Origin: Candidatus Omnitrophota bacterium
GTDB taxonomy: Bacteria; Omnitrophota; Gorgyraeia; Duberdicusellales; 4484-171
Length of the DNA: 43,322 nt
Direction: 5' to 3'
NCBI GenBank assembly: GCA_043820815.1
Contig: JBDRDJ010000029.1
Location: 1-43,322 of the forward strand
A program made the translations under genes and the position numbers. The notes under the pieces were generated by a model. That model saw only the letters and a program-made list of their open reading frames with translations, was not told the origin of the DNA and ran no database searches. Each line of letters starts with the position of its first letter. The stretch's first letter is position 1. Below are positions 27,968 to 41,306 of this stretch, in pieces.

Positions 27968-29758
27968 ATGATAGTTCCGATGCAAAAAATAACATTGCTG
28001 GTTTCCGATGGAAACAAAGATGCATCCCTTACAAAGTTACGAAAACTCGGCCTTTTACATATCACTCATCTTAAAAATCCGCAAAGCCGGGAGATAACTA
28101 ACCTTGAAAATAAGTTAGAGGATATTGATGGAGCCCTTATAATCCTTGATTCTAATAATAAAAAAACAACCGCAGGGAATATAGATGAAAAAGAATTAAC
28201 TAACAGCTTGCAGCAAGTCCTTGCCCTTGAGAAAGAAAAACAACAGCTTCTCATGCATGTTGAGGAATTAACCCGGGATACTGGCTGGTTCAAGGAGTGG
28301 GGCGATATTAATCCTGCATCGCTTATTGAGCTAAATAAAGCCGGTATTTTTATTAAATTGTATATTGTTAGCCCCGCGGAACTTAAGAAAATAGGTAAAG
28401 ACAAAACAGTTAAGGTTCTCAAAATAAAGAAATCTAAAGTGTGCCTGGCGTTTATAGCCAGGCAGGAATCCCAAAAACTTAATTACCAGCAGATAAATAT
28501 ACCTAAGAAGAGCCTTTTATCTATTGAAAAAGATATTGTCCTTTCGCAAAAAAAACTTCGGAAAATAAACGAAAGCTTAGATAAATTAGCTGATTTAAAA
28601 GCCGTTTTTCTTGAGTACAAAGAAGATATAAAAAAACAACTTGAATTTAACAGGGTAAAATCAGGCATGGCAGATGAGGAAGGTTTCTCTTACATAGAGG
28701 GCTATTGCCCAAGGTATTCATCCAAGAAAATTAAAAATGCCGCGGCCTTAGAGGGCTGGGGTATATTATCTCAGGAACCCGATAAGCCCCAGGAAACACC
28801 CACTCTTATAAAGAACCCCGCCTGGATTAAAGTCATAAACCCTGTTTTTAAAATCATGGGCGCTATTCCGGGATACCGTGAATTCGACATCAGCTTTTGG
28901 TTTTTGTTATTTTTTACTGTTTTTGTTGCAATGCTGATTGGCGATGCCGGGTATGGATCGTTATTCTTAGCCGCTACATTTTTTATGCGTAAGAAATTAT
29001 CCTTTCTTAAGCGAGAGATGATTTTTCTTATTTATATATTAAGTGCCGCAACTGTTTTCTGGGGCGCTGTTACCGGAACATGGTTTGGTTTTGAGAAAAT
29101 CGCCCGGCTGCCTTTCTTAAGAGGAGCCGTTATTCCTAATATTGCGAGTTTCGGCCACGGGGACAACCAAATATTTATGATCCATATATGTTTTATTATA
29201 GGGTGTATTCATCTTACGGTTGCCCATTCATTAGCGGCATTTCGCTGCGGCACTTCTTTAAAAATGTTATCGCAGGCCGGATGGATAGCTATTATTTGGA
29301 GCCTGTTTTTTTATTCGGAAATGTTTGTTTTGGGAAAAGAGCTTCCTAAACTGGCAAATTTCCTTGCATACGCGGGATTATTCTTAGTTTTACTTTTCTC
29401 AAATCCCGAAAAGGGCGTAATCAAGGGTATTTTAACTGCGTTGGCAGATATTCCCTTGAAAATAATCGGTTCTTTTTCCGATGTAATGTCATATATACGT
29501 TTATTTGCGGTTGGTTTTGCCACAGTTGCCATGGCAGTAAGCTCAAACGCGATGGCAGGGGAGGTTTTAGGAAGCACGGCTCATGTAATCATTAAAGGTT
29601 TTCTTTCGGCAATAATTTTATTTTTGGGGCATACTCTTAATATAGCATTAGCAGTCATAGGAGTTCTTGTTCACGGGGTAAGGCTTAATTTACTCGAATT
29701 CTCGAACCATCTCGGTATGGAGTGGTCAGGGAAAAGTTATGCGCCGTTTAAAGAATAA
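27968..29758 (+). CDS. V/A-type ATPase subunit I (a)
   Basis: MIVPMQK, GDAGYG, DVMSYIRLFAVG, VHGVRLNLLEF. Confidence 0.94.
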   Translation: MIVPMQKITLLVSDGNKDASLTKLRKLGLLHITHLKNPQSREITNLENKLEDIDGALIILDSNNKKTTAGNIDEKELTNSLQQVLALEKEKQQLLMHVEELTRDTGWFKEWGDINPASLIELNKAGIFIKLYIVSPAELKKIGKDKTVKVLKIKKSKVCLAFIARQESQKLNYQQINIPKKSLLSIEKDIVLSQKKLRKINESLDKLADLKAVFLEYKEDIKKQLEFNRVKSGMADEEGFSYIEGYCPRYSSKKIKNAAALEGWGILSQEPDKPQETPTLIKNPAWIKVINPVFKIMGAIPGYREFDISFWFLLFFTVFVAMLIGDAGYGSLFLAATFFMRKKLSFLKREMIFLIYILSAATVFWGAVTGTWFGFEKIARLPFLRGAVIPNIASFGHGDNQIFMIHICFIIGCIHLTVAHSLAAFRCGTSLKMLSQAGWIAIIWSLFFYSEMFVLGKELPKLANFLAYAGLFLVLLFSNPEKGVIKGILTALADIPLKIIGSFSDVMSYIRLFAVGFATVAMAVSSNAMAGEVLGSTAHVIIKGFLSAIILFLGHTLNIALAVIGVLVHGVRLNLLEFSNHLGMEWSGKSYAPFKE

Positions 29759-29805
29759 TTAAGAAAATTAGATTTTTCTTAAATTGCGGCCTTATCGGAT
29801 TAAAA

Positions 29806-29900
29806 GATTTCTCATCCCGCCTGTTGCGGGATTCGAAATCAATTCGCATCAGTGACTTATGTTCTCTTTCGATCCATAAGTCACGTGCTCATTGAGGAGG
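29806..29900 (+). repeat. Two-hairpin TTCG/CTCA cassette fused to the SD of subunit K
   Basis: GATTTC-TC-ATCCCGC..GCGGGAT-TC-GAAATC, then CAA-TTCG...GTGACTTATG..CATAAGTCAC...CTCA-TTG-AGGAGG. Confidence 0.8.
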
Positions 29901-29906
29901 TTTGTC

Positions 29907-30353
29907 ATGATAGGAGGTTTTGGCGATTTAAATTTTTCTTTAGCTTTTTCAGCCATTGGCTCAGCATTAGGAACGGGAGTGGCAGGGATGGCTGCCGTGG
30001 GCGCTATGAAAAAAGCTTTTCTTTCAAAAAAAAGCGTTCCTTTCCAGCTCATCGTGTTCAGCGGTTTTCCCTTATCGCAGACCCTATACGGTATGCTTTT
30101 GAGAAACGCAATAAAGAGCGCGGCATTGCCGGCCACATGGGATAATTATATATTAATGATGCTTGTTGGCCTAATAGGCGGCAGTGCCATAGGCATGAGT
30201 GCATTTATGCAGGGTAAAGCAGCTGCTTGTGCATGCGATGCTCTTGTTGAAACCGGAGAAGGGACAGGCAAATATATAGCAATCCTCGGTATTATTGAGT
30301 CTGTGGCAATTCTTGTTATGGCCTTTTGCGTTTTGGCAATACCCAAGGCATAG
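29907..30353 (+). CDS. V/A-type ATPase proteolipid subunit K (c), 4 TM
   Basis: GSALGTGVAG, PLSQTLYG, SAFMQG, GIIESVA. AGGAGG RBS before ATG 29907. Confidence 0.93.
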   Translation: MIGGFGDLNFSLAFSAIGSALGTGVAGMAAVGAMKKAFLSKKSVPFQLIVFSGFPLSQTLYGMLLRNAIKSAALPATWDNYILMMLVGLIGGSAIGMSAFMQGKAAACACDALVETGEGTGKYIAILGIIESVAILVMAFCVLAIPKA

Positions 30354-30509
30354 AGCAGCTTAAGATTACTGATAATTTTAAGTGCTTGATTTTTTGCGTA
30401 AATTTGATATTATTGGTCTTTTCTTATTGACCTTGTAATTAATAATTATTCTTGATAAACTTGTATTCAGATAATGACGCAATGGCTTTTTAATGGTATT
30501 ATAGCCATA

Positions 30510-30551
30510 TTGCTATTTGCCATAAGCTATTTGCAATTTGCCATTTGCTAT
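30510..30551. repeat. Heptamer array (TTGCCAT/TTGCTAT) x6
   Basis: TTGCTAT TTGCCAT AAGCTAT TTGCAAT TTGCCAT TTGCTAT, ending 3 nt before tRNA-Val. Confidence 0.8.
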
Positions 30552-30554
30552 TAT

Positions 30555-30626
30555 GGGCGGTTGGCGCAGCGGAAGCGCATCTCGTTTACACCGAGGGGGT
30601 CGTGGGTTCAAATCCTACACCGCCCA
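30555..30626 (+). tRNA. tRNA-Val (TAC)
   Basis: GGGCGGT/ACCGCCC acceptor, loop TTTACAC, GGTTCAA. Confidence 0.95.
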
Positions 30627-30675
30627 TTTGTATATTTAATAGCCTTAGTGTAGATTAAAGAGTTTGGAGACAGGC

Positions 30676-31164
30676 ATGAGCGTAAACACTCCGGCCCTTG
30701 CTTTAAGCATTTGTTCTGCCTTAGCGATTATTATTTTTGTGAGTGCTTATCTTCGCACGGTCTTAAGGTACAGTGCGCTTTTAGAATCAGTCGCTTCTCT
30801 TATAGAAGGTAAGGTTACAGCAGGAATATTTTATTCGTCAATCCACTTAACAGGCAGTTACAAGGGGAGGAAAATAAAGTGCAGCCTTGAGCAGCTTAAA
30901 GAAGGGAGTAATGCGTTTCTTCTTAAGGCTAAACCTCATAAGTTTCCCCTCATGAAAAAAAGCTTAGGCAACCAGCCTTATGTTTTCGGTGATGCTATTC
31001 TTTATGAAGGCTGGGTAATGACGAATTATTTCCTTTCTCCCAATACGTTCACGAGAAACTCTTTTTTAAGTGTCCTGGAAGAGCTCAGCACAATTTGCGA
31101 GAAAGTAGAAAGAAGAAGCATTACCGCCAGCGTTGAGTATAAAGGAGATACTCCTCATATATAA
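30676..31164 (+). CDS. Hypothetical membrane-anchored protein
   Basis: N-terminal TM helix; GGAG RBS before ATG 30676; family not recognised. Confidence 0.65.
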   Translation: MSVNTPALALSICSALAIIIFVSAYLRTVLRYSALLESVASLIEGKVTAGIFYSSIHLTGSYKGRKIKCSLEQLKEGSNAFLLKAKPHKFPLMKKSLGNQPYVFGDAILYEGWVMTNYFLSPNTFTRNSFLSVLEELSTICEKVERRSITASVEYKGDTPHI

Positions 31165-31206
31165 TATCAAAAATCAAAAATTAAAATGATATTGATTTTT
31201 GATATT
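31163..31206. repeat. Short copy of the AT-rich inverted-repeat element
   Basis: 15-bp perfect IR AATATCAAAAATCAA / TTGATTTTTGATATT. Confidence 0.7.
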
Positions 31207-31218
31207 TAAAAGGCAAAT

Positions 31219-32934
31219 ATGATGGATTTAAACACATTACGGCATTCATGCTCGCACATAATGGCTTCGGCGGTTAAAAGGCTTTTTCCCCAGGCCAGCC
31301 TTGGTATAGGGCCGGCTATTGAAAATGGATTTTACTACGATTTTCTTATACCCGAAGGCATAAAAGAAGAGTATTTAGAAAAAATAGAAAGCCTTATGAA
31401 AAAAGTTATAGAAAAAGATTACCCTTTCAAGCATGAAGAATGGAATGCCCGGGACGCAATCGATTTCTTCAAAAAGCAGGGAGAACCTTTTAAGGTTGAG
31501 TTAATAGAAGACTTAGGCCAAGAAAAAGTTTCTGTTTACAAACATAACGAGTTCACCGATCTTTGCAAAGGGCCGCACGTAGCTGCAACCGGAGGTGTTA
31601 AGCATTTTAAGCTTCTTTCAGTCTCGGGGGCGTATTGGAAGGGTTCCGAGAGCAACCAGCAGTTCGTGCGTATTTACGGGACCGCTTTTTACAATGAAGA
31701 GGATTTAAGAAAGCATCTCGATAATTTAGAAGAAGCCAAGAGAAGAGACCACCGTACATTAGGCAGGCAGCTAAATCTTTTTGAAATATACCACAATCAG
31801 GCCGGCGCCGGCCTTGTTTTCTATCTTCCAAACGGCGCAATACTTCGAAGAATTATTGAAGACTACGAGATTGCCGAACACCGCCGCCGCGGATATCAAA
31901 TGGTAATAACTCCTCACATAATGGATAAAAAACTATGGCAGAAAAGCGGCCATGCGGATTTTTACCAGGAATATATGTATTCGGTTACAAAAGATAACCA
32001 GGAGTTTATTTTAAAACCAATGAACTGCCCCGGGCATATCCTCATTTATAAATCGCAAGCTCATAGTTTCCGGGACCTTCCTTTGAGAATGTTTGAGCTT
32101 GGCACGGTGTATAGATTTGAGAAAAGCGGGGTTTTGCACGGCCTTCTTCGTTTAAGAGGTTTTACTCAAGACGATGCTCATATATTTTGCCGCAAAGAAG
32201 ATTTATATTCTGAAATAGAAGGCGTTTTAGATTTTGTAGATTCGGCTATGAAAAAGTTCGGTTTCGACCATTTCGATGCCGAATTAAGCACGCGCCCCCA
32301 TGATTTTATAGGAGACAAGAATGATTGGGACTTGGCAGAAGAAGTTTTAGAAGGCGTGTTAAAGAAAAAAAATTTCAATTATAAAATTAACAGAGGCGAC
32401 GGAGCTTTCTACGGGCCGAAGATTGATATAAAACTTAAAGATGCCCTGGATAGAGAATGGCAGTGTGCAACAGTCCAGTTAGACTATAATATTCCCAATA
32501 GATTTGACTTAACTTACAGGGATTCTTCCGGAAAAGATGAACGGGTGATAATGATTCACAGGGTAATTTTAGGAAGCCTTGAGCGGTTTACGGCAACTCT
32601 TATCGAACATTATGCAGGCAAGTTTCCTTTATGGCTTGCGCCTGTTCAGGTGAGCGTCCTCAATGTCACTAAAGACTCAGCTGGGTACGCCTGCCAAATA
32701 AGCGGCAGCCTTAACAAAAATGGTTTTAGGGCCGAAGCCGACACAGATAATGAAACCCTGCAGAAGAAAATACGAAAAAAAGAGCTTTTAAAAATACCTT
32801 ATATGATTATTGTCGGCAAAAAAGAACAAAATGAGGGCACAATCTCTGTAAGACGCAGAGGCATGAAAGATTTAGGAAAGATGGCAGTGGATGAGTTTGA
32901 AAAGATGTTGAATGAGGAGCTGGAAAAACAATAA
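31219..32934 (+). CDS. thrS: Threonyl-tRNA synthetase (no N-terminal TGS domain)
   Basis: LRHSCSH, DLCKGPH, RDHR, KPMNCPGH, FTQDDAHIF, GAFYGPKID, GSLERF. Confidence 0.97.
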   Translation: MMDLNTLRHSCSHIMASAVKRLFPQASLGIGPAIENGFYYDFLIPEGIKEEYLEKIESLMKKVIEKDYPFKHEEWNARDAIDFFKKQGEPFKVELIEDLGQEKVSVYKHNEFTDLCKGPHVAATGGVKHFKLLSVSGAYWKGSESNQQFVRIYGTAFYNEEDLRKHLDNLEEAKRRDHRTLGRQLNLFEIYHNQAGAGLVFYLPNGAILRRIIEDYEIAEHRRRGYQMVITPHIMDKKLWQKSGHADFYQEYMYSVTKDNQEFILKPMNCPGHILIYKSQAHSFRDLPLRMFELGTVYRFEKSGVLHGLLRLRGFTQDDAHIFCRKEDLYSEIEGVLDFVDSAMKKFGFDHFDAELSTRPHDFIGDKNDWDLAEEVLEGVLKKKNFNYKINRGDGAFYGPKIDIKLKDALDREWQCATVQLDYNIPNRFDLTYRDSSGKDERVIMIHRVILGSLERFTATLIEHYAGKFPLWLAPVQVSVLNVTKDSAGYACQISGSLNKNGFRAEADTDNETLQKKIRKKELLKIPYMIIVGKKEQNEGTISVRRRGMKDLGKMAVDEFEKMLNEELEKQ

Positions 32935-32957
32935 GTTATTTGAAAATATTTATTAGA

Positions 32958-33051
32958 GATACTTCGCCCGTTTATAGCGGGCTCAGTATCAATTCGGCCA
33001 AATGACTTATGTTCGTTTTCGCTCCATAAGTCATGGCCTCATTGAAGGAGG
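32958..33051 (+). repeat. Two-hairpin TTCG/CTCA cassette fused to the SD of infC
   Basis: GATAC-TTCG-CCCGT..GCGGG-CTCA-GTATC, then CAA-TTCG-GCCA..TGACTTATG..CATAAGTCA-TGGC-CTCA-TTG-AAGGAGG. Confidence 0.8.
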
Positions 33052-33061
33052 TAGATAAAAT

Positions 33062-33565
33062 TTGAAGTTTGTAAGGGTAAACGAAAGAATATTCGCAAAG
33101 ACTTTGCGCGTTGTCGGCCCGGAAGGGGAACAGCTGGGTATTTTTCCCAAGGCCATGGCTCTTAGTAAAGCGAATGAACTTAATCTTGATTTAGTTGAAG
33201 TAGCACCCGCGGCGAAACCACCTGTGTGCAGGATTATGGATTTTTCTAAATACAGGTATGAGCAGGAAAAAAGAGAAAGGGAAGTAAAGAAACACCAGAA
33301 ACAGTCTCAGCTTAAGGAAATACGCCTTAGGCCGCGAATAGGTAAACACGATTACGAAGTTAAATTAAAGCATATAAAGGAATTTCTGGAAAAGAAGCAT
33401 AAAGTGAGAATAAGGATGATGTATAAAGGCAGAGAAATTGCACATAAAGATATAGGGGATAGATTGATAAGCCAGCTTATACAGGATATCGATAAAATAG
33501 GAAGGGTTGACCGCGACCCTCATATGTTCGGTAAAACCCTGGTTATGGTGCTGGCACCTAAGTGA
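33062..33565 (+). CDS. infC: Translation initiation factor IF-3 (TTG start)
   Basis: LDLVEVAP...PPVCRIMDF.KY.YE, KEIRLRP.I..HD, GRE. Confidence 0.96.
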   Translation: MKFVRVNERIFAKTLRVVGPEGEQLGIFPKAMALSKANELNLDLVEVAPAAKPPVCRIMDFSKYRYEQEKREREVKKHQKQSQLKEIRLRPRIGKHDYEVKLKHIKEFLEKKHKVRIRMMYKGREIAHKDIGDRLISQLIQDIDKIGRVDRDPHMFGKTLVMVLAPK

Positions 33566-33636
33566 AATCGAATAGTAGGGTATGTGAAAATCTCAAAAAG
33601 ATTTTGAATTGAGATATTTTACAAATAATAATATAA

Positions 33637-33771
33637 GATACTTCGTCCGCTTATTGCGGACTCATTGAAATGACCTAAATAAGATTCTTCGCCTGCCATT
33701 GGCAGACTCAGGATCAATTCGGCCTTATCCCGCTCCTTTTGGAAAAGGGGCGGGATGGCCTCATTGAGGAG
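33637..33771 (+). repeat. Partial plus complete TTCG/CTCA cassette fused to the SD of rpmI
   Basis: GATAC-TTCG-TCCGC..GCGGA-CTCA-TTG (33637-33667); GATTC-TTCG-CCTGCC..GGCAGA-CTCA-GGATC; CAA-TTCG-GCC..ATCCCGCTCCTTT..AAAGGGGCGGGAT-GGC-CTCA-TTG-AGGAG. Confidence 0.8.
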
Positions 33772-33779
33772 ATTTGAAA

Positions 33780-33977
33780 ATGCCAAAATTAAAAACAAAG
33801 AAAGCATTAGCAAAAAGAGTAAAAGTAACCAAAAAGAGAAAAGTCATCCGCGCAAAGGCCAACAGGAGGCATCTTCTAAGCCACCGTTCCAGTAAAAGAA
33901 AGCGTAAGCTGCGCCACGGCGGTTTAGTCTCAAAAGCTGATAAGAAAACTATTTTGCGCGCCATGCCTTATTCTTAA
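33780..33977 (+). CDS. rpmI: 50S ribosomal protein L35
   Basis: MPKLKTKKALAKRVKVT...RHLL...KRKRKLR. Confidence 0.96.
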   Translation: MPKLKTKKALAKRVKVTKKRKVIRAKANRRHLLSHRSSKRKRKLRHGGLVSKADKKTILRAMPYS

Positions 33978-34001
33978 AAATAAAAATAAAGGAGATGGAT
34001 T

Positions 34002-34346
34002 ATGAGGACAAAACACGCTGTACCTAAAAAAAAGAGAAGAAAAAAGATTCTTAAAGCAGCAAAGGGGTATTGGGGAGACCGCTCGAAAAATTACCGGCGC
34101 ACCATTGAGAGCGTGCGCAGGGCGTGGGCTTATTCTTACAGGGACAGGCGGGCAAAAAAGAGAGAGTTCCGTTCTCTATGGATTATGCGGATTAATGCGG
34201 CCGCACGCGAAAAAGGCTGGACGTATCGCGGATTAATTAATGGGCTGAAGAAAAACAACATAATTTTATCGCGAGACATACTGGCTCAAATCGCGGCACA
34301 ACACCCTGTAACTTTTGATAAAATAGTTGAAACCGCTAAAAATTAA
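34002..34346 (+). CDS. rplT: 50S ribosomal protein L20
   Basis: KILKAAKGYWG, YSYRDRRAKKREFRSLWIMRINAAAR. Confidence 0.97.
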   Translation: MRTKHAVPKKKRRKKILKAAKGYWGDRSKNYRRTIESVRRAWAYSYRDRRAKKREFRSLWIMRINAAAREKGWTYRGLINGLKKNNIILSRDILAQIAAQHPVTFDKIVETAKN

Positions 34347-34349
34347 ATC

Positions 34350-34745
34350 ATGAAATATATAATAGTAGTTGGATGCGGCAAGACAGGCAGAGAGCTGGCT
34401 TTTGAGCTTTCAAAAACAGAGAACGTCGTTGTTGTAGACAGGAACCTTCGCGCCCTTGATGCGCTGGGGGATGATTTTAACGGGAAAAAGATTTGGGCTG
34501 ATGCTTTGGACATGAATGTTCTTGAAGATGCCGGGATAAAAGAAGCAGGCGTGATTTATCTTCTTACAGGCAACGATAATCTCAATTTAGTTATCGGGAA
34601 AGTTGTAAAAAGAAAATACGGTGTTCAGAAAGCCATCTTGCAGGTAAACGACATAACTAAAAAGAAGATTTTTAAAGAGGAAGGTTTAACTATTGTAAGC
34701 CGCACTTACTTGATAGTTGAAGTTCTTAAGAAGTGCATTGCATAA
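34350..34745 (+). CDS. TrkA-family RCK_N-only protein
   Basis: IIVVGCGKTG Rossmann motif, LEDAGI, TGNDNLN; no RCK_C domain. Confidence 0.85.
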   Translation: MKYIIVVGCGKTGRELAFELSKTENVVVVDRNLRALDALGDDFNGKKIWADALDMNVLEDAGIKEAGVIYLLTGNDNLNLVIGKVVKRKYGVQKAILQVNDITKKKIFKEEGLTIVSRTYLIVEVLKKCIA

Positions 34746-34901
34746 ATTACAATTACGGTAACGGTTATGTAAATAAATCAAAAATTAAATATCAAAAATA
34801 AAAATGACAATGAAAAAATTAAAAATTTAAGATTTAAATCTAATCATTTTGAATTTTTATTTGTCATTTTAATATTTACATTTTGATTTTTAATTTTGCA
34901 A
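34745..34901. repeat. ~150-bp AT-rich inverted-repeat element, copy 2
   Basis: AATTAC AATTAC GGTAAC GGTTAT GTAAAT prefix plus arms colinear with 21011-21160. Confidence 0.8.
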
Positions 34902-34926
34902 TCTGGATATTAATTTGGGGTAAATT

Positions 34927-35592
34927 ATGTATATAGTAATAGCAGGAGTAGGCAGGCTTGGGCTAATTTTAGCCAGAAAGCTTAGAGAAGACAAACATCA
35001 AGTCTGTGTTATTGATAAAAGCGAGAGCCTTTGCAACAGGCTTGCCGCTGAATTAGAAGACATTTTGATCATTTGCGGCGATGCCACTTATCCAGATATT
35101 CTGCACCAGGCAAAGATGGAAAAAGCCGATGTATGCGTAAGCGCAACATCTACCGACGAAGATAATATTATTATTTGTAATTTGTCAAAAGAGCTTTTTG
35201 GAGTAAAAAGGGCGGTTTCCAGAGTAAATGACCCCAAACACCTCCCCCTTTACAAATATATGGAGGTTGATAATCCGGTAGATTCCACTTCTATTATTGC
35301 CCGCATTGTAGAAGAGGAGGCTTCTTTTACCGATTTTATGAATTTGCTGAGCATAAAAAAGGGAAGGCTCTCTATAGTCCGCGTTGATATACCTGAAGAT
35401 TCCCCCGTTGCCAAAAAGATCCTTAAAGATATTCGCCTTCCTTCCAATTCCGTTCTGGTTTCGATAATTAGAGGGCCGGATATTATTATTCCTTCAGGGT
35501 CAACGCAGATTTTACCCGGAGACGAAGTAATAGCCGCGACTCTTATTGATGTCGAAAAAGATCTTATCAAGGCTCTGATCGGAAAATTATGA
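34927..35592 (+). CDS. trkA: Trk potassium uptake NAD-binding protein TrkA
   Basis: IVIAGVGRLG, GDAT, DEDN, RCK_C (IIRG...IPSG). Confidence 0.92.
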   Translation: MYIVIAGVGRLGLILARKLREDKHQVCVIDKSESLCNRLAAELEDILIICGDATYPDILHQAKMEKADVCVSATSTDEDNIIICNLSKELFGVKRAVSRVNDPKHLPLYKYMEVDNPVDSTSIIARIVEEEASFTDFMNLLSIKKGRLSIVRVDIPEDSPVAKKILKDIRLPSNSVLVSIIRGPDIIIPSGSTQILPGDEVIAATLIDVEKDLIKALIGKL

Positions 35593-41138: not shown

Positions 41139-41297
41139 AAAACCCTGCATGTCGCGTAAGCAGGTACAAGTGCTACAGCCAATATTTACTAAAGGGAGCC
41201 AAATTTTTCTTCCGTTGCGGCGGACAGAATGCGGTGCCCACCTGTATGAGAACAGGACTGTATGCAGCATACCTGCGACGGACAAGCGCAGGGTTTT
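41139..41297 (+). ncRNA. ssrS: 6S RNA
   Basis: ~160-nt rod: AAAACCCTGC/GCAGGGTTTT closing stem, GCAGGTA/TACCTGC and TACAG/CTGTA stems, A-rich bubble before GGGAGC, GTGCCCACC. Downstream of pheT with its own promoter. Confidence 0.82.
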
Positions 41298-41306
41298 TTT
41301 AATGAA

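What the first reader, a model, noticed from the sequence alone, without database searches (positions are those of the whole stretch)
29806..33779. Top candidate: covarying two-hairpin cassette welded to the SD of atpK, infC and rpmI
Seen: three copies (29806-29900, 32958-33051, 33683-33771, plus a half copy at 33637-33667) share the scaffold GATWY-[TC/TC loop, stem 1]-ATC-AATTCG-[stem 2]-CTCATTG-(A)AGGAG. Stem 1 differs in sequence among copies (ATCCCGC/GCGGGAT, CCCGT/GCGGG, CTGCC/GGCAG). Stem 2 is TGACTTATG/CATAAGTCA twice and ATCCCGCTCCTTT/AAAGGGGCGGGAT once. Pairing, loops, orientation and exact abutment to the SD are kept. The downstream genes are operon-internal and need higher or separate expression (c-ring subunit, IF3, L35-L20). 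Inference: a repeat-derived cis-regulatory RNA module (processing site, 5' stabiliser or translation enhancer) that sets stoichiometry within long operons. I do not recognise it as a described family.
Basis: partly seen in the sequence, partly recalled or inferred. Interest (0 to 1): 0.85.

Follow-up and report, generated by a model that had tools for sequence, protein, structure and literature searches.

The report
Mobile hairpin repeat beside ribosome-binding sites
The three two-hairpin cassettes are real, but they are copies of a mobile DNA repeat found across the Omnitrophota, whose full-length relatives in other genomes carry a small nuclease gene and which sits directly against ribosome-binding sites; they are not a leader RNA specific to atpK, infC and rpmI.

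Summary
Three full cassettes and one deletion copy lie at the stated coordinates, fold stably, covary, and end directly against the SD. No Rfam family matches. The cassette is a dispersed repeat: 29 strong copies in this 1.57 Mb Omnitrophota MAG, and 23 of them end at an SD plus start codon of functionally unrelated genes. It occurs in 43 of 61 related genomes at 0 to 98 copies, and in 60 of 121 genomes across the phylum. It is not conserved at orthologous sites: atpK 0 of 27, infC 1 of 18, and no match at E<0.1 in 17 rpmI spacers. A.C mismatches are nearly as common as G.U, so the constraint is strand-symmetric, as expected at the DNA level. Other copies lie antisense in a tRNA group I intron or inside duplicated tRNA ends. 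In at least six other genomes the same hairpins flank a 86-107 aa Slx1-like GIY-YIG nuclease gene that sits in the loop of hairpin 1; this looks like the autonomous form. Best reading: the window copies are MITE-like, non-autonomous elements that integrate directly against strong SDs. Any regulatory effect is untested. The targeting mechanism is inferred, not shown.

The parts
29806..29894 (+). Non-autonomous element copy upstream of atpK. Hairpin 1 is 29806-29840 (GATTTC / UC-UC / ATCCCGC stem). Hairpin 2 is 29841-29894 (AATTCG ... CTCATTG).
   Evidence: Sequence; fold z = -4.7; covariance model 84 bits, E = 1e-15
29895..29909 (+). SD AGGAGG (29895-29900) directly after the element end, and the atpK start ATG at 29907
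   Evidence: Pfam ATP-synt_C
32958..33044 (+). Non-autonomous element copy between the thrS stop (32934) and infC. This is the best-scoring copy in the genome.
   Evidence: z = -6.3; 99.3 bits
33045..33064 (+). SD AAGGAGG (33045-33051) directly after the element end, and the infC start TTG at 33062
   Evidence: Pfam IF3_N and IF3_C
33637..33668 (+). Deletion derivative ('half copy'): hairpin 1 fused directly to the terminal CTCATTGA. It lies in tandem 14 nt upstream of the next full copy.
   Evidence: z = -4.8; nhmmer partial hit at 33630-33664
33683..33766 (+). Non-autonomous element copy upstream of rpmI. Hairpin 2 is of the ATCCCGC...GCGGGAT type.
   Evidence: z = -4.5; 74.5 bits
33767..33782 (+). 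SD AGGAG (33767-33771) directly after the element end, and the rpmI start ATG at 33780
   Evidence: Pfam Ribosomal_L35p
33604..33632 (+). Weak sigma-70-like match (TTGAAT-17-AATAAT) just upstream of the half copy. It may be the rpmI promoter. It is not part of the repeat.
   Evidence: 9 of 12 matches, but the region holds no more such sites than shuffled sequence (8 found against 10.3 expected)

Best explanation
The cassettes are non-autonomous, MITE-like copies of a mobile palindromic DNA element family found across Candidatus Omnitrophota.

Shown:
- The constant core is AATTCG, hairpin 2 and CTCATTG(A), with a conserved tandem pyrimidine mismatch. It is preceded by a swappable hairpin 1.
- Copy number and location differ between genomes.
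- In other genomes the full form reads TCAATGAG, hairpin 2 (reverse), 5' arm of hairpin 1, an 86-107 aa stand-alone Slx1-like GIY-YIG nuclease ORF, 3' arm of hairpin 1, hairpin 2, CTCATTG. Its right end sits directly against the SD of a host gene that runs in the same direction.
- The ~90-nt form (hairpins 1 and 2, as in the window) and a ~145-nt form (hairpin 2 reversed, hairpin 1, hairpin 2) are this structure without the ORF.
- Two close-relative site comparisons show that the AAGGAG SD belongs to the host gene and that the element ends exactly at its 5' edge.

Inferred:
- The nuclease, which is structure-specific by family, acts on the hairpin or cruciform ends.
- New copies arise by break repair or transposition anchored at the strong SD consensus.
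- ORF-less copies are mobilised in trans.
- In the window the cassettes are simply co-transcribed as 5' UTR. They fold on their own and leave the SD free, with at most a secondary effect on expression.
For: Dispersed family:
- 29 copies at E<1e-4 and 27 covariance-model hits at E<1e-3 in the window's genome.
- 43 of 61 related genomes carry it, with 0 to 98 copies each.
- 60 of 121 genomes sampled across the phylum carry it.

Not orthologous:
- atpK loci: 0 of 27 relatives.
- infC: 1 of 18.
- The infC-rpmI spacers of 17 relatives are unrelated sequences of 26-177 nt.

Constraint looks DNA-level:
- 95.8% of cells are paired and 27 of 30 pairs show compensatory change. The covariation score is 0.527, against 0.044-0.064 for slid controls.
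- A.C/C.A mismatches number 57, against 92 G.U/U.G. In hairpin 2 it is 27 against 16.

Both orientations and transposon-like contexts:
- One copy lies reversed in the P1 loop of a tRNA-Asn group I intron (RF00028, 83.4 bits).
- Others lie between 13-16-nt direct repeats of tRNA ends.
- Head-to-head composites occur, and a burst of near-identical copies in G038.

Autonomous form:
- 7 of 30 loci of one GIY-YIG subgroup have the element within 60 nt, and 3 are flanked on both sides.
- Three 70%-identical paralogous composites sit at three different loci of G028.
- Inverted arms of 18 and 23 nt bracket the ORF.
- The ORFs match the UPF0213 structures 1zg2 and 1ywl. PMC1564403 (passages read) places these among bacterial stand-alone Slx1-like domains.

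Preference for strong SDs:
- 23 of 29 copies abut an SD and start codon.
- 18 of 23 linked SDs read AGGAGG, against 162 of 657 background SD sites (P = 1e-7).

The SD belongs to the host.
Against: - No nuclease activity, excision or transposition event has been observed.
- The window's genome (77% complete) holds no ORF-bearing copy of the SD-linked type. Its GIY-YIG ORFs lie next to tRNAs.
- Most GIY-YIG ORFs examined are not bracketed by the element: only 4 of 29 loci of the subgroup closest to the window genome's ORF have an adjacent match, and only 2 of 32 have inverted arms of 18 nt or more. The ORF could therefore be a secondary invader of the hairpin loop and not its mobilising enzyme.
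- No clean target-site duplication was found.
- In the filled-versus-empty comparisons the whole upstream spacer differs, so this is not a simple insertion. The 'empty' sites may themselves be footprints: TTCATTA directly before AAGGAG in two of four species.
- A 90-aa nuclease with no DNA-binding domain is an unlikely sequence-specific reader of the SD.
- A second, unrelated repeat family in the same genome also ends directly against the SD. Ending at the SD may therefore reflect selection or SD-anchored recombination in general.
- In hairpin 1, G.U outnumbers A.C by 76 to 30, which fits some RNA-level selection on the sense strand.
Confidence: 0.72

Rival explanations
1. The cassette is primarily a selected cis-acting RNA: a 5' stabiliser, processing site or translation enhancer placed against the SD, which was copied to genes that benefit from it.
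For: - 23 of 29 copies are in the sense orientation and end directly against an SD and start codon; 50 of 109 do so in other genomes.
- The hairpins are stable and leave the SD unpaired.
- Linked SDs are unusually strong.
- G.U exceeds A.C in hairpin 1, 76 to 30.
- Ribosomal and translation operons are hit again and again in different lineages: infC, rpmI, rplT, and rplL-like and rplS-like genes.
Against: - It is not conserved at orthologous genes.
- 52 of 109 copies elsewhere lack an SD.
- Antisense and tRNA-embedded copies exist.
- The same conserved core occurs in sub-families with no SD link.
- A.C mismatches are nearly as frequent as G.U overall.
- Predicted SD accessibility is no higher than for other genes: 0.44 against 0.38, p = 0.16, n = 16 against 200.
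- The downstream genes are functionally heterogeneous.
Confidence: 0.12
2. The cassette is a reused 5' leader that spreads by recombination anchored on the shared SD sequence, with no dedicated enzyme. The GIY-YIG genes are later invaders of the hairpin loop.
For: - A second, unrelated ~80-nt repeat with a TATAAT-like box also ends exactly at the SD of 8 genes in this genome.
- In the close-relative comparisons the whole spacer upstream of the SD is replaced, not interrupted.
- Highly similar promoter regions shared by unrelated genes have been described (PMC3575422; search listing and start of the abstract seen).
Against: - Whole ORF-plus-hairpin composites occur at three different loci of one genome.
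- Copies without an SD, in tRNA genes and in an intron cannot be explained by SD anchoring.
- The conserved mismatch-bearing termini point to recognition by a protein.
Confidence: 0.1
3. The cassette is a REP/BIME-like or IS200/IS605-type hairpin repeat, moved as single-stranded DNA by a Y1 (HUH) transposase.
For: - The genome encodes Y1_Tnp domains: C4:63874-64170 within a 263-aa open frame, and two partial matches at contig ends.
- The hairpins carry conserved mismatches. On the opposite strand these read as tandem G.A, and one hairpin 1 type reads GCGAAGC there (read).
Against: - No element copy lies near any Y1_Tnp match (coordinates compared).
- The ORF actually found inside the element is a GIY-YIG nuclease.
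- The GTAG or CGTC end tags named for REPs in PMC3733652 (search listing only) were not seen at the element ends.
Confidence: 0.06

Closest known systems
Bacterial MITEs that are co-transcribed with neighbouring genes, such as the Correia elements of Neisseria
   Same: Short, structured, multi-copy and ORF-less. They sit in intergenic DNA and become part of the 5' UTR. Copy number differs between lineages, and inverted ends are present in the composite form.
   Different: The ends here are themselves bulged hairpins. No TA-type target duplication was found. One end sits directly against the SD in about half or more of the copies. The ORF-bearing relative encodes a GIY-YIG nuclease and not a DDE transposase.
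REP/BIME repeats with RAYT Y1 transposases (PMC3333891, abstract seen in the search listing)
   Same: Intergenic palindromes with conserved imperfections, often clustered or in tandem, and structure conserved through compensatory change.
   Different: No association with a Y1 gene was found here. The position is 5' of start codons and not 3' of genes. The units are longer and have two hairpins.
GIY-YIG homing endonucleases, in introns or free-standing (PMC1564403 passages; PMC2988022 search listing)
   Same: A GIY-YIG gene embedded in a selfish element that persists in essential, highly expressed operons. Some copies are linked to tRNA genes and to a group I intron.
   Different: The ORFs are 86-107 aa and consist of the nuclease domain only. 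There is no DNA-binding domain: TIGR01453 scores 20 bits against a cut-off of 56. They belong to the Slx1-like UPF0213 branch, which PMC1564403 describes as mostly vertically inherited. Spread is to many non-allelic sites, and ORF-less derivatives exist.
Putative mobile promoters, or promoter reuse (PMC3575422, search listing and start of the abstract)
   Same: Near-identical upstream sequence in front of unrelated genes within one genome and across relatives.
   Different: No promoter was detected in the window copies. Two of the three are operon-internal. The defining feature is hairpin structure with conserved termini, and an ORF-bearing form exists.
Ribosomal-protein and infC leaders such as the L20 leader (recalled)
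   Same: A structured RNA upstream of infC-rpmI-rplT.
   Different: No Rfam match. It is not conserved at this operon in relatives, and the same cassette precedes about 20 unrelated genes.

Membership tests
Any Rfam 15 family | Score at or above the family's gathering threshold | tested here: not met
   the only matches over the cassettes are chance-level microRNA hits (18-19.5 bits against thresholds of 66-98; E = 2.7-4.7).
MITE (non-autonomous transposable element) | Many dispersed copies whose number and location vary between related genomes | tested here: met
   Orthologous sites are empty.
MITE (non-autonomous transposable element) | Terminal inverted repeats | tested here: inconclusive
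   Composite forms read TCAATGAG...hairpin 2 reversed...hairpin 1...hairpin 2...CTCATTGA. The window's form (hairpins 1 and 2 only) has just one such end.
MITE (non-autonomous transposable element) | Target-site duplication | tested here: inconclusive
   None is evident at the SD-linked copies. Direct repeats of 13-16 nt of tRNA ends flank three tRNA-linked copies.
MITE (non-autonomous transposable element) | A longer relative with the same ends that encodes the mobilising enzyme | tested here: met
   a GIY-YIG ORF sits in the hairpin 1 loop between inverted hairpin 2 ends in G028 (3 loci), G018, G054 and G036, with partial forms in G044, G008 and G035. That this enzyme does the mobilising is inferred.
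Conserved cis-regulatory leader RNA | Present upstream of the orthologous gene in related genomes | tested here: not met
   atpK 0 of 27. infC 1 of 18 at E<1e-3. rpmI spacers: no match at E<0.1, and 17 unrelated spacer sequences.
Conserved cis-regulatory leader RNA | Strand-specific (RNA-type) substitution pattern, with G.U tolerated and A.C avoided | tested here: inconclusive
   overall 92 G.U against 57 A.C. Hairpin 1 is 76 against 30; hairpin 2 is 16 against 27.
REP/RAYT or IS200/IS605 hairpin repeats | Association with a Y1 (HUH) transposase gene | tested here: not met
   One search gives three Y1_Tnp matches. No element copy or 37 lies beside them.
GIY-YIG homing endonuclease (I-TevI type) | Two-domain protein: nuclease domain plus a C-terminal DNA-binding domain | tested here: not met
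   The ORFs are 86-107 aa. TIGR01453 scores 20.4-20.6 bits against a cut-off of 56. The best solved relatives are the single-domain UPF0213 proteins 1zg2 and 1ywl.
Group I intron | Match to RF00028 over the element | tested here: not met
   RF00028 matches C28:10315-10531, next to the element copy and not over it. That copy fills the loop of P1.

The most novel reading that the evidence does not exclude
A phylum-wide class of bacterial mobile elements is driven by a minimal Slx1-like GIY-YIG nuclease housed in the loop of its own hairpin. It uses the Shine-Dalgarno consensus (AAGGAGG) as its landing site. This is the most conserved and least mutable non-coding motif in the genome, present in hundreds of copies. 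The element rides on host operon transcription and leaves ORF-less hairpin cassettes as the 5' UTR of about 20 genes per genome.
Probability: 0.3. Interest if true: 0.8.

Novelty: new variant of a known kind. Interest (0 to 1): 0.6.

Why it matters
If the reading is right, stand-alone Slx1-like GIY-YIG proteins, usually treated as housekeeping genes of unknown role, include the enzyme of a transposable or homing element family with MITE derivatives. No such element turned up in my three literature searches with GIY-YIG terms.

It would also be a selfish element that persists by sitting exactly at ribosome-binding sites of highly expressed operons. That bears on how 5' UTRs are built and rewired in streamlined, uncultivated bacteria.

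In practice, these cassettes will be mistaken for riboswitch-like or leader RNAs in comparative screens. They also break assemblies: several copies lie at contig ends.

Tried and rejected
- **Rfam.** Whole window at gathering thresholds and the 4.4-kb region at E up to 10: nothing over the cassettes.
- **Expression data.** No RNA holder was listed for window 29000-35000. Laying four DNA contig sets gave only fragments, plus extra depth over hairpin 2 from other copies; no informative joint across a cassette.
- **Promoter and terminator scan of 29600-34100.** No more sites than in shuffles, and none inside the cassettes.
- **SD unmasking.** The predicted unpaired probability of the SD is 0.44 for element-linked genes (n = 16) and 0.38 for 200 other genes (p = 0.16). 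Against 86 other AAGGAGG genes it is 0.41 (p = 0.33).
- **Y1 transposase link.** Three Y1_Tnp matches, none beside a copy.
- **Viral contigs.** 0 matches to the pattern AATTCG...CTCATTGAAGGAGG.
- **Riboswitch reading.** Rejected because the loops are not conserved, hairpin 1 is swapped at orthologous loci and copies occur on either strand of transcripts.
- **Integron attC reading.** Rejected because the copies are dispersed in front of housekeeping genes on many contigs.
- **boxA/Nus site resemblance of GCTCATTGA.** This was a recalled lead only and was not pursued.
- **An early guess that one downstream gene was EF-Tu was wrong.** The translation shows a membrane-type protein, and Pfam finds only a sub-threshold HAMP match (23.9 bits against a cut-off of 25).
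- **Paper supplements** were not consulted.

Full report
**1. The observation**

The window holds three full cassettes: 29806-29894, 32958-33044 and 33683-33766. There is also a shorter piece at 33637-33668. Each full copy reads GAT-helix, UC/UC loop, helix, loop and return, ATC, AATTCG, helix, long hairpin, CTCATTG. It is followed at once by (A)AGGAG(G), and the start codon follows 12-17 nt after CTCATTG. Pfam confirms the downstream genes as a V-type ATPase c/K subunit, IF3 and L35. thrS lies upstream of infC and L20 lies downstream of L35.

As RNA, the copies fold into two independent hairpins. The energies are -35.9, -38.0 and -42.4 kcal/mol, with z = -4.7, -6.3 and -4.5, and none of 200 shuffles folds as well. 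The SD is unpaired in each fold.

- The 2x2 UC/UC internal loop is present in both hairpins.
- Hairpin 2 has a short covarying base helix (GGCC/GGCC, GCAC/GTGC, GCAT/GTGC) under a bulge.
- The 'half copy' is hairpin 1 joined to the terminal CTCATTGA, as if the stretch between the two CTCA motifs had been deleted.

No Rfam 15 family matches.

**2. It is a genome-wide repeat**

The window is contig C29 of a 1.57 Mb assembly with 32 contigs, 39.7% G+C and 77% completeness. Record titles of IF3 relatives place it in Candidatus Omnitrophota.

An nhmmer profile finds 42 matches at E up to 1, of which 29 have E<1e-4. I built a covariance model from 12 copies and deliberately left the SD out of it. 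It finds 27 matches at E<1e-3.

Of the 29 strong copies, 23 are followed on the same strand by an SD and a start codon that opens an ORF (three junctions re-read). One more has an SD but no nearby start. Five lie in tRNA contexts.

A random oriented position meets the same SD-plus-ORF rule with probability 0.011, so 23 of 29 has P about 5e-40.

The linked SDs are unusually strong. 18 of 23 read AGGAGG, against 162 of 657 SD sites genome-wide (P = 1e-7). 16 of 23 read AAGGAGG, against 100 of 657. One A of AAGGAGG may belong to the element end.

The downstream genes are heterogeneous: secretin, NusA, PilZ, rubrerythrin, CsgG-like, response regulator, START-like, MlaD, SPFH, NYN, LemA, LTXXQ, an HMGL-like enzyme, pilin-like, MscS, HU and several unknowns. 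Only about 12 of 29 copies have a same-strand upstream open frame ending within 60 nt. 'Operon-internal genes that need special stoichiometry' therefore does not describe the set.

**3. Comparative evidence**

The model matches 43 of 61 related genomes (same family to same class, own genome included). Counts run from 0 to 71 under that call's scoring cap. One genome, G038, has 98 when searched alone. Across the phylum, 60 of 121 sampled genomes match at E<=1e-4.

- None of 27 relatives' atpK loci has it.
- Of 18 Omnitrophota-like infC loci, one (L100) has a clear copy ending at the infC SD (41.1 bits). The other six matches in that search are weak (13.8-25.3 bits, E = 0.0013-0.56). By their coordinates none ends at the infC SD, and I did not inspect them further.
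- In most relatives infC follows thrS directly, with the SD inside or just after thrS.
- The infC-rpmI spacers of 17 relatives are unrelated sequences of 26-177 nt.

I then examined copies from about 25 other genomes. These came from the best-scoring listing, and G038 was left out. The set holds 111 matches, of which 109 are distinct: 50 abut an SD and an ORF, 7 have an SD-like motif without a confirmed ORF (several limited by short flanks), and 52 have no SD. Of the 30 best copies in G038, 9 abut an SD, 4 are internal units of tandem arrays with a period of about 140 nt, 1 is none of these, and 16 belong to a burst of near-identical copies of a longer (~170 nt) sub-family with no SD link.

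**4. Is the constraint on RNA or on DNA?**

On the 109 distinct copies, 95.8% of cells form a standard pair and 27 of 30 pairs show changes on both sides. The covariation score is 0.527, against 0.044-0.064 when partners are slid by 1-3 columns. That alignment was fitted to the model, which favours the structure.

Compensation of this kind is equally expected for a DNA palindrome. The strand test is informative here. G.U/U.G pairs number 92, while A.C/C.A pairs, which would be G.U on the other strand, number 57. In hairpin 2 the A.C class is the larger, 27 against 16. In hairpin 1, G.U leads 76 to 30. This near-symmetry fits a DNA-level constraint better than a sense-strand RNA. Hairpin 1 leaves some room for RNA-level selection.

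The UC/UC loop of hairpin 2 is kept in 100-101 of 109 copies. That of hairpin 1 is kept in 33-44 of 109. On the opposite strand these loops read as tandem G.A, and one hairpin 1 type reads GCGAAGC there (seen). One copy has hairpin 1 'corrected' to a perfect palindrome (C8:15082-15168).

**5. Contexts that a leader RNA cannot explain**

- The tRNA-Asn(GUU) gene at C28:10190-10577 is split by a group I intron (RF00028, 83.4 bits). The element lies reversed in the loop between the 5' splice site and the internal guide sequence. The same arrangement is seen in two other genomes, G060 and G014.
- Three further copies lie between 13-16-nt direct repeats of tRNA ends. One of these insertions carries an 88-aa GIY-YIG ORF that starts inside the reversed hairpin 1.
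- Related ORFs in other genomes show the same tRNA-end duplications.
- In several genomes two hairpin 2 units face outward around one long, perfect hairpin 1, giving a symmetric unit of about 145 nt with ends TCAATGAG...CTCATTGA. One end sits directly against an SD.

**6. The ORF-bearing form**

Three SD-linked copies in three genomes had a GIY-YIG ORF immediately upstream (coordinates). Reading those loci showed that the ORF sits in the loop of hairpin 1. The order is reversed hairpin 2, 5' arm, ORF, 3' arm, hairpin 2, CTCATT(G/A), AAGGAG(G), 5-7 nt, ATG of a host gene on the same strand.

I searched relatives with that protein. 7 of 30 loci have the element within 60 nt in this outward-facing arrangement, and 3 have it on both sides.

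G028 has three paralogues, about 70% identical in protein, each inside such a composite at a different locus. Two of them precede genes whose N-termini look like L7/L12 and L19; I read this by eye and did not test it. In G018 the composite lies between rpmI and rplT.

Inverted arms of 18 and 23 nt bracket the ORF in two cases. The other 30 of the 32 GIY-YIG ORFs examined have arms of 11 nt or less. Only 4 of 29 loci of the subgroup closest to the window genome's own ORF have an adjacent model match. The association therefore holds for a sub-lineage, not for all such genes.

The proteins carry only the GIY-YIG domain (Pfam). They fall far below the group I intron endonuclease model, at 20 bits against a cut-off of 56. 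Their closest solved relatives are the UPF0213 proteins 1zg2 and 1ywl. Dunin-Horkawicz et al. (PMC1564403, passages read) classify these as bacterial stand-alone Slx1-like domains. Slx1-Slx4 is cited there as a structure-specific endonuclease.

**7. Whose SD is it?**

In genus g65 two filled sites could be compared with close relatives.
- G131:C28 (filled) and G143:C58 (flanks 88-91% identical) share the string AAGGAGATTGTTTATG. In G131 it follows ...CTCATT directly. In G143 it follows unrelated spacer.
- G082:C13 (filled) compares with G143:C11, where only TAA plus 9 nt precede AAGGAG.

So the SD belongs to the host gene and the element ends exactly at its 5' edge.

The comparison is not a clean insertion, because the whole spacer upstream differs. 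Two other species carry TTCATTA directly before AAGGAG at the second site, which looks like a remnant of an element end.

**8. How it most likely works**

Shown:
- The family is dispersed, variable in copy number, modular and not orthologous.
- Its structure covaries in a strand-symmetric way.
- ORF-bearing composites share the same ends.
- It ends directly against strong host SDs.

Inferred:
- The nuclease acts on the mismatch-bearing hairpin or cruciform ends.
- Copies spread by break repair or transposition anchored at the SD consensus.
- The ORF-less copies in this genome are mobilised in trans or are relics.
- The nuclease gene has no promoter of its own and depends on host operon transcription.

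At the RNA level the window copies are part of the atpK, infC and rpmI 5' regions. They fold on themselves and leave the SD free. I found no sign that they make the SD more accessible than in other genes.

**9. What weakens this reading**

- No event or enzymatic activity has been observed.
- No target duplication is seen at SD-linked copies.
- The nuclease could be a later invader of hairpin loops.
- A tiny single-domain nuclease is an unlikely reader of a 7-nt sequence.
- A second, unrelated ~80-nt repeat in this genome, with a TATAAT-like box, also ends directly against the SD of 8 genes. This recalls reused promoters (PMC3575422, search listing and start of the abstract). It suggests that ending at the SD can arise by selection or by SD-anchored recombination alone.

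**10. Novelty**

No Rfam family matches. Three literature searches that combined GIY-YIG with MITE, mobile element/tRNA/hairpin, and insertion sequence/palindromic terms returned no paper describing a bacterial element of this kind. A search on Omnitrophota repeats also returned none, as did one on MITE with Shine-Dalgarno. These searches cover only the held open-access library.

I file the finding as a new variant of a known kind: MITE-like palindromic repeats. The bolder reading, an SD-targeting element driven by an Slx1-like nuclease, remains open at about 0.3.

Noticed in passing
G000:C28:10190-10577 (L002:1376-1763) and G000:C4:17937-18176 (L001:1501-1740): Two tRNA genes are split by group I introns: tRNA-Asn(GUU) at 83.4 bits and tRNA-Tyr(GUA) at 88.3 bits against RF00028. 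A third, sub-threshold match (41 bits) lies in the region of the 23S rRNA gene (C5:116179-116417). ARAGORN with intron search reports only 24 tRNAs in the assembly.
   Followed up: partly
G000:C5:105380-105960; also L197 (G014), L193 (G041), L195 (G013): Small GIY-YIG ORFs are inserted in the D-arm region of tRNA-Ser or tRNA-His genes. The tRNA 5' end is duplicated (12-16 nt, and in G014 about 120 nt of upstream DNA as well), so an intact tRNA is kept. This looks like a tRNA-targeting mobile unit related to the SD-linked one.
   Followed up: partly
G000: C7:1965(-), C8:44703, C12:43938, C13:23825, C13:28865, C15:14304(-), C20:88899, C28:14351: A second, unrelated repeat of about 80 nt (...TTGTAATCAGGTATAATCC...GATTATACCAG) ends directly against the GAGG SD of 8 different genes. 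It contains a TATAAT-like box, so it may be a reused promoter plus leader.
   Followed up: no
L056, L136, L138 (genome G058): In G058 several copies end CTCATTGACA, followed 17 nt later by TATACT or TAAAAT. The element end overlaps a -35-like TTGACA placed at promoter spacing from a -10-like box.
   Followed up: no
L289 (G131), L291 (G143), L292 (G166): At one orthologous locus in three species of a genus, hairpin 2 and the downstream flank are conserved but hairpin 1 is three different sequences. This points to modular replacement of hairpin 1.
   Followed up: no
G038: C89:4146-4508, C3:27584-27958, C4:35539-35903, C25:14383-14607: Tandem arrays of 2-3 units with a period of about 140 nt lie upstream of genes. 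Only the last unit abuts the SD.
   Followed up: partly
G000:C22:29690-29854 (L044): A tRNA-like 5' half (through the anticodon loop) is joined to a reversed element copy at ...GCCTT|CAATGAGG. Neither ARAGORN nor Rfam finds a 3' half or an intron core nearby. An intact tRNA-Pro lies about 100 nt away.
   Followed up: partly
window 41139-41298 (+) and 30555-30626 (+): A 6S RNA gene (54.6 bits). Also a tRNA between atpK and thrS that Rfam finds (62.8 bits) but the ARAGORN intron-mode run did not list.
   Followed up: no
window 27968-29758 (+): The 596-aa ORF between the V-ATPase D subunit and atpK, in the position of subunit I, has no Pfam match at E<=0.001.
   Followed up: no
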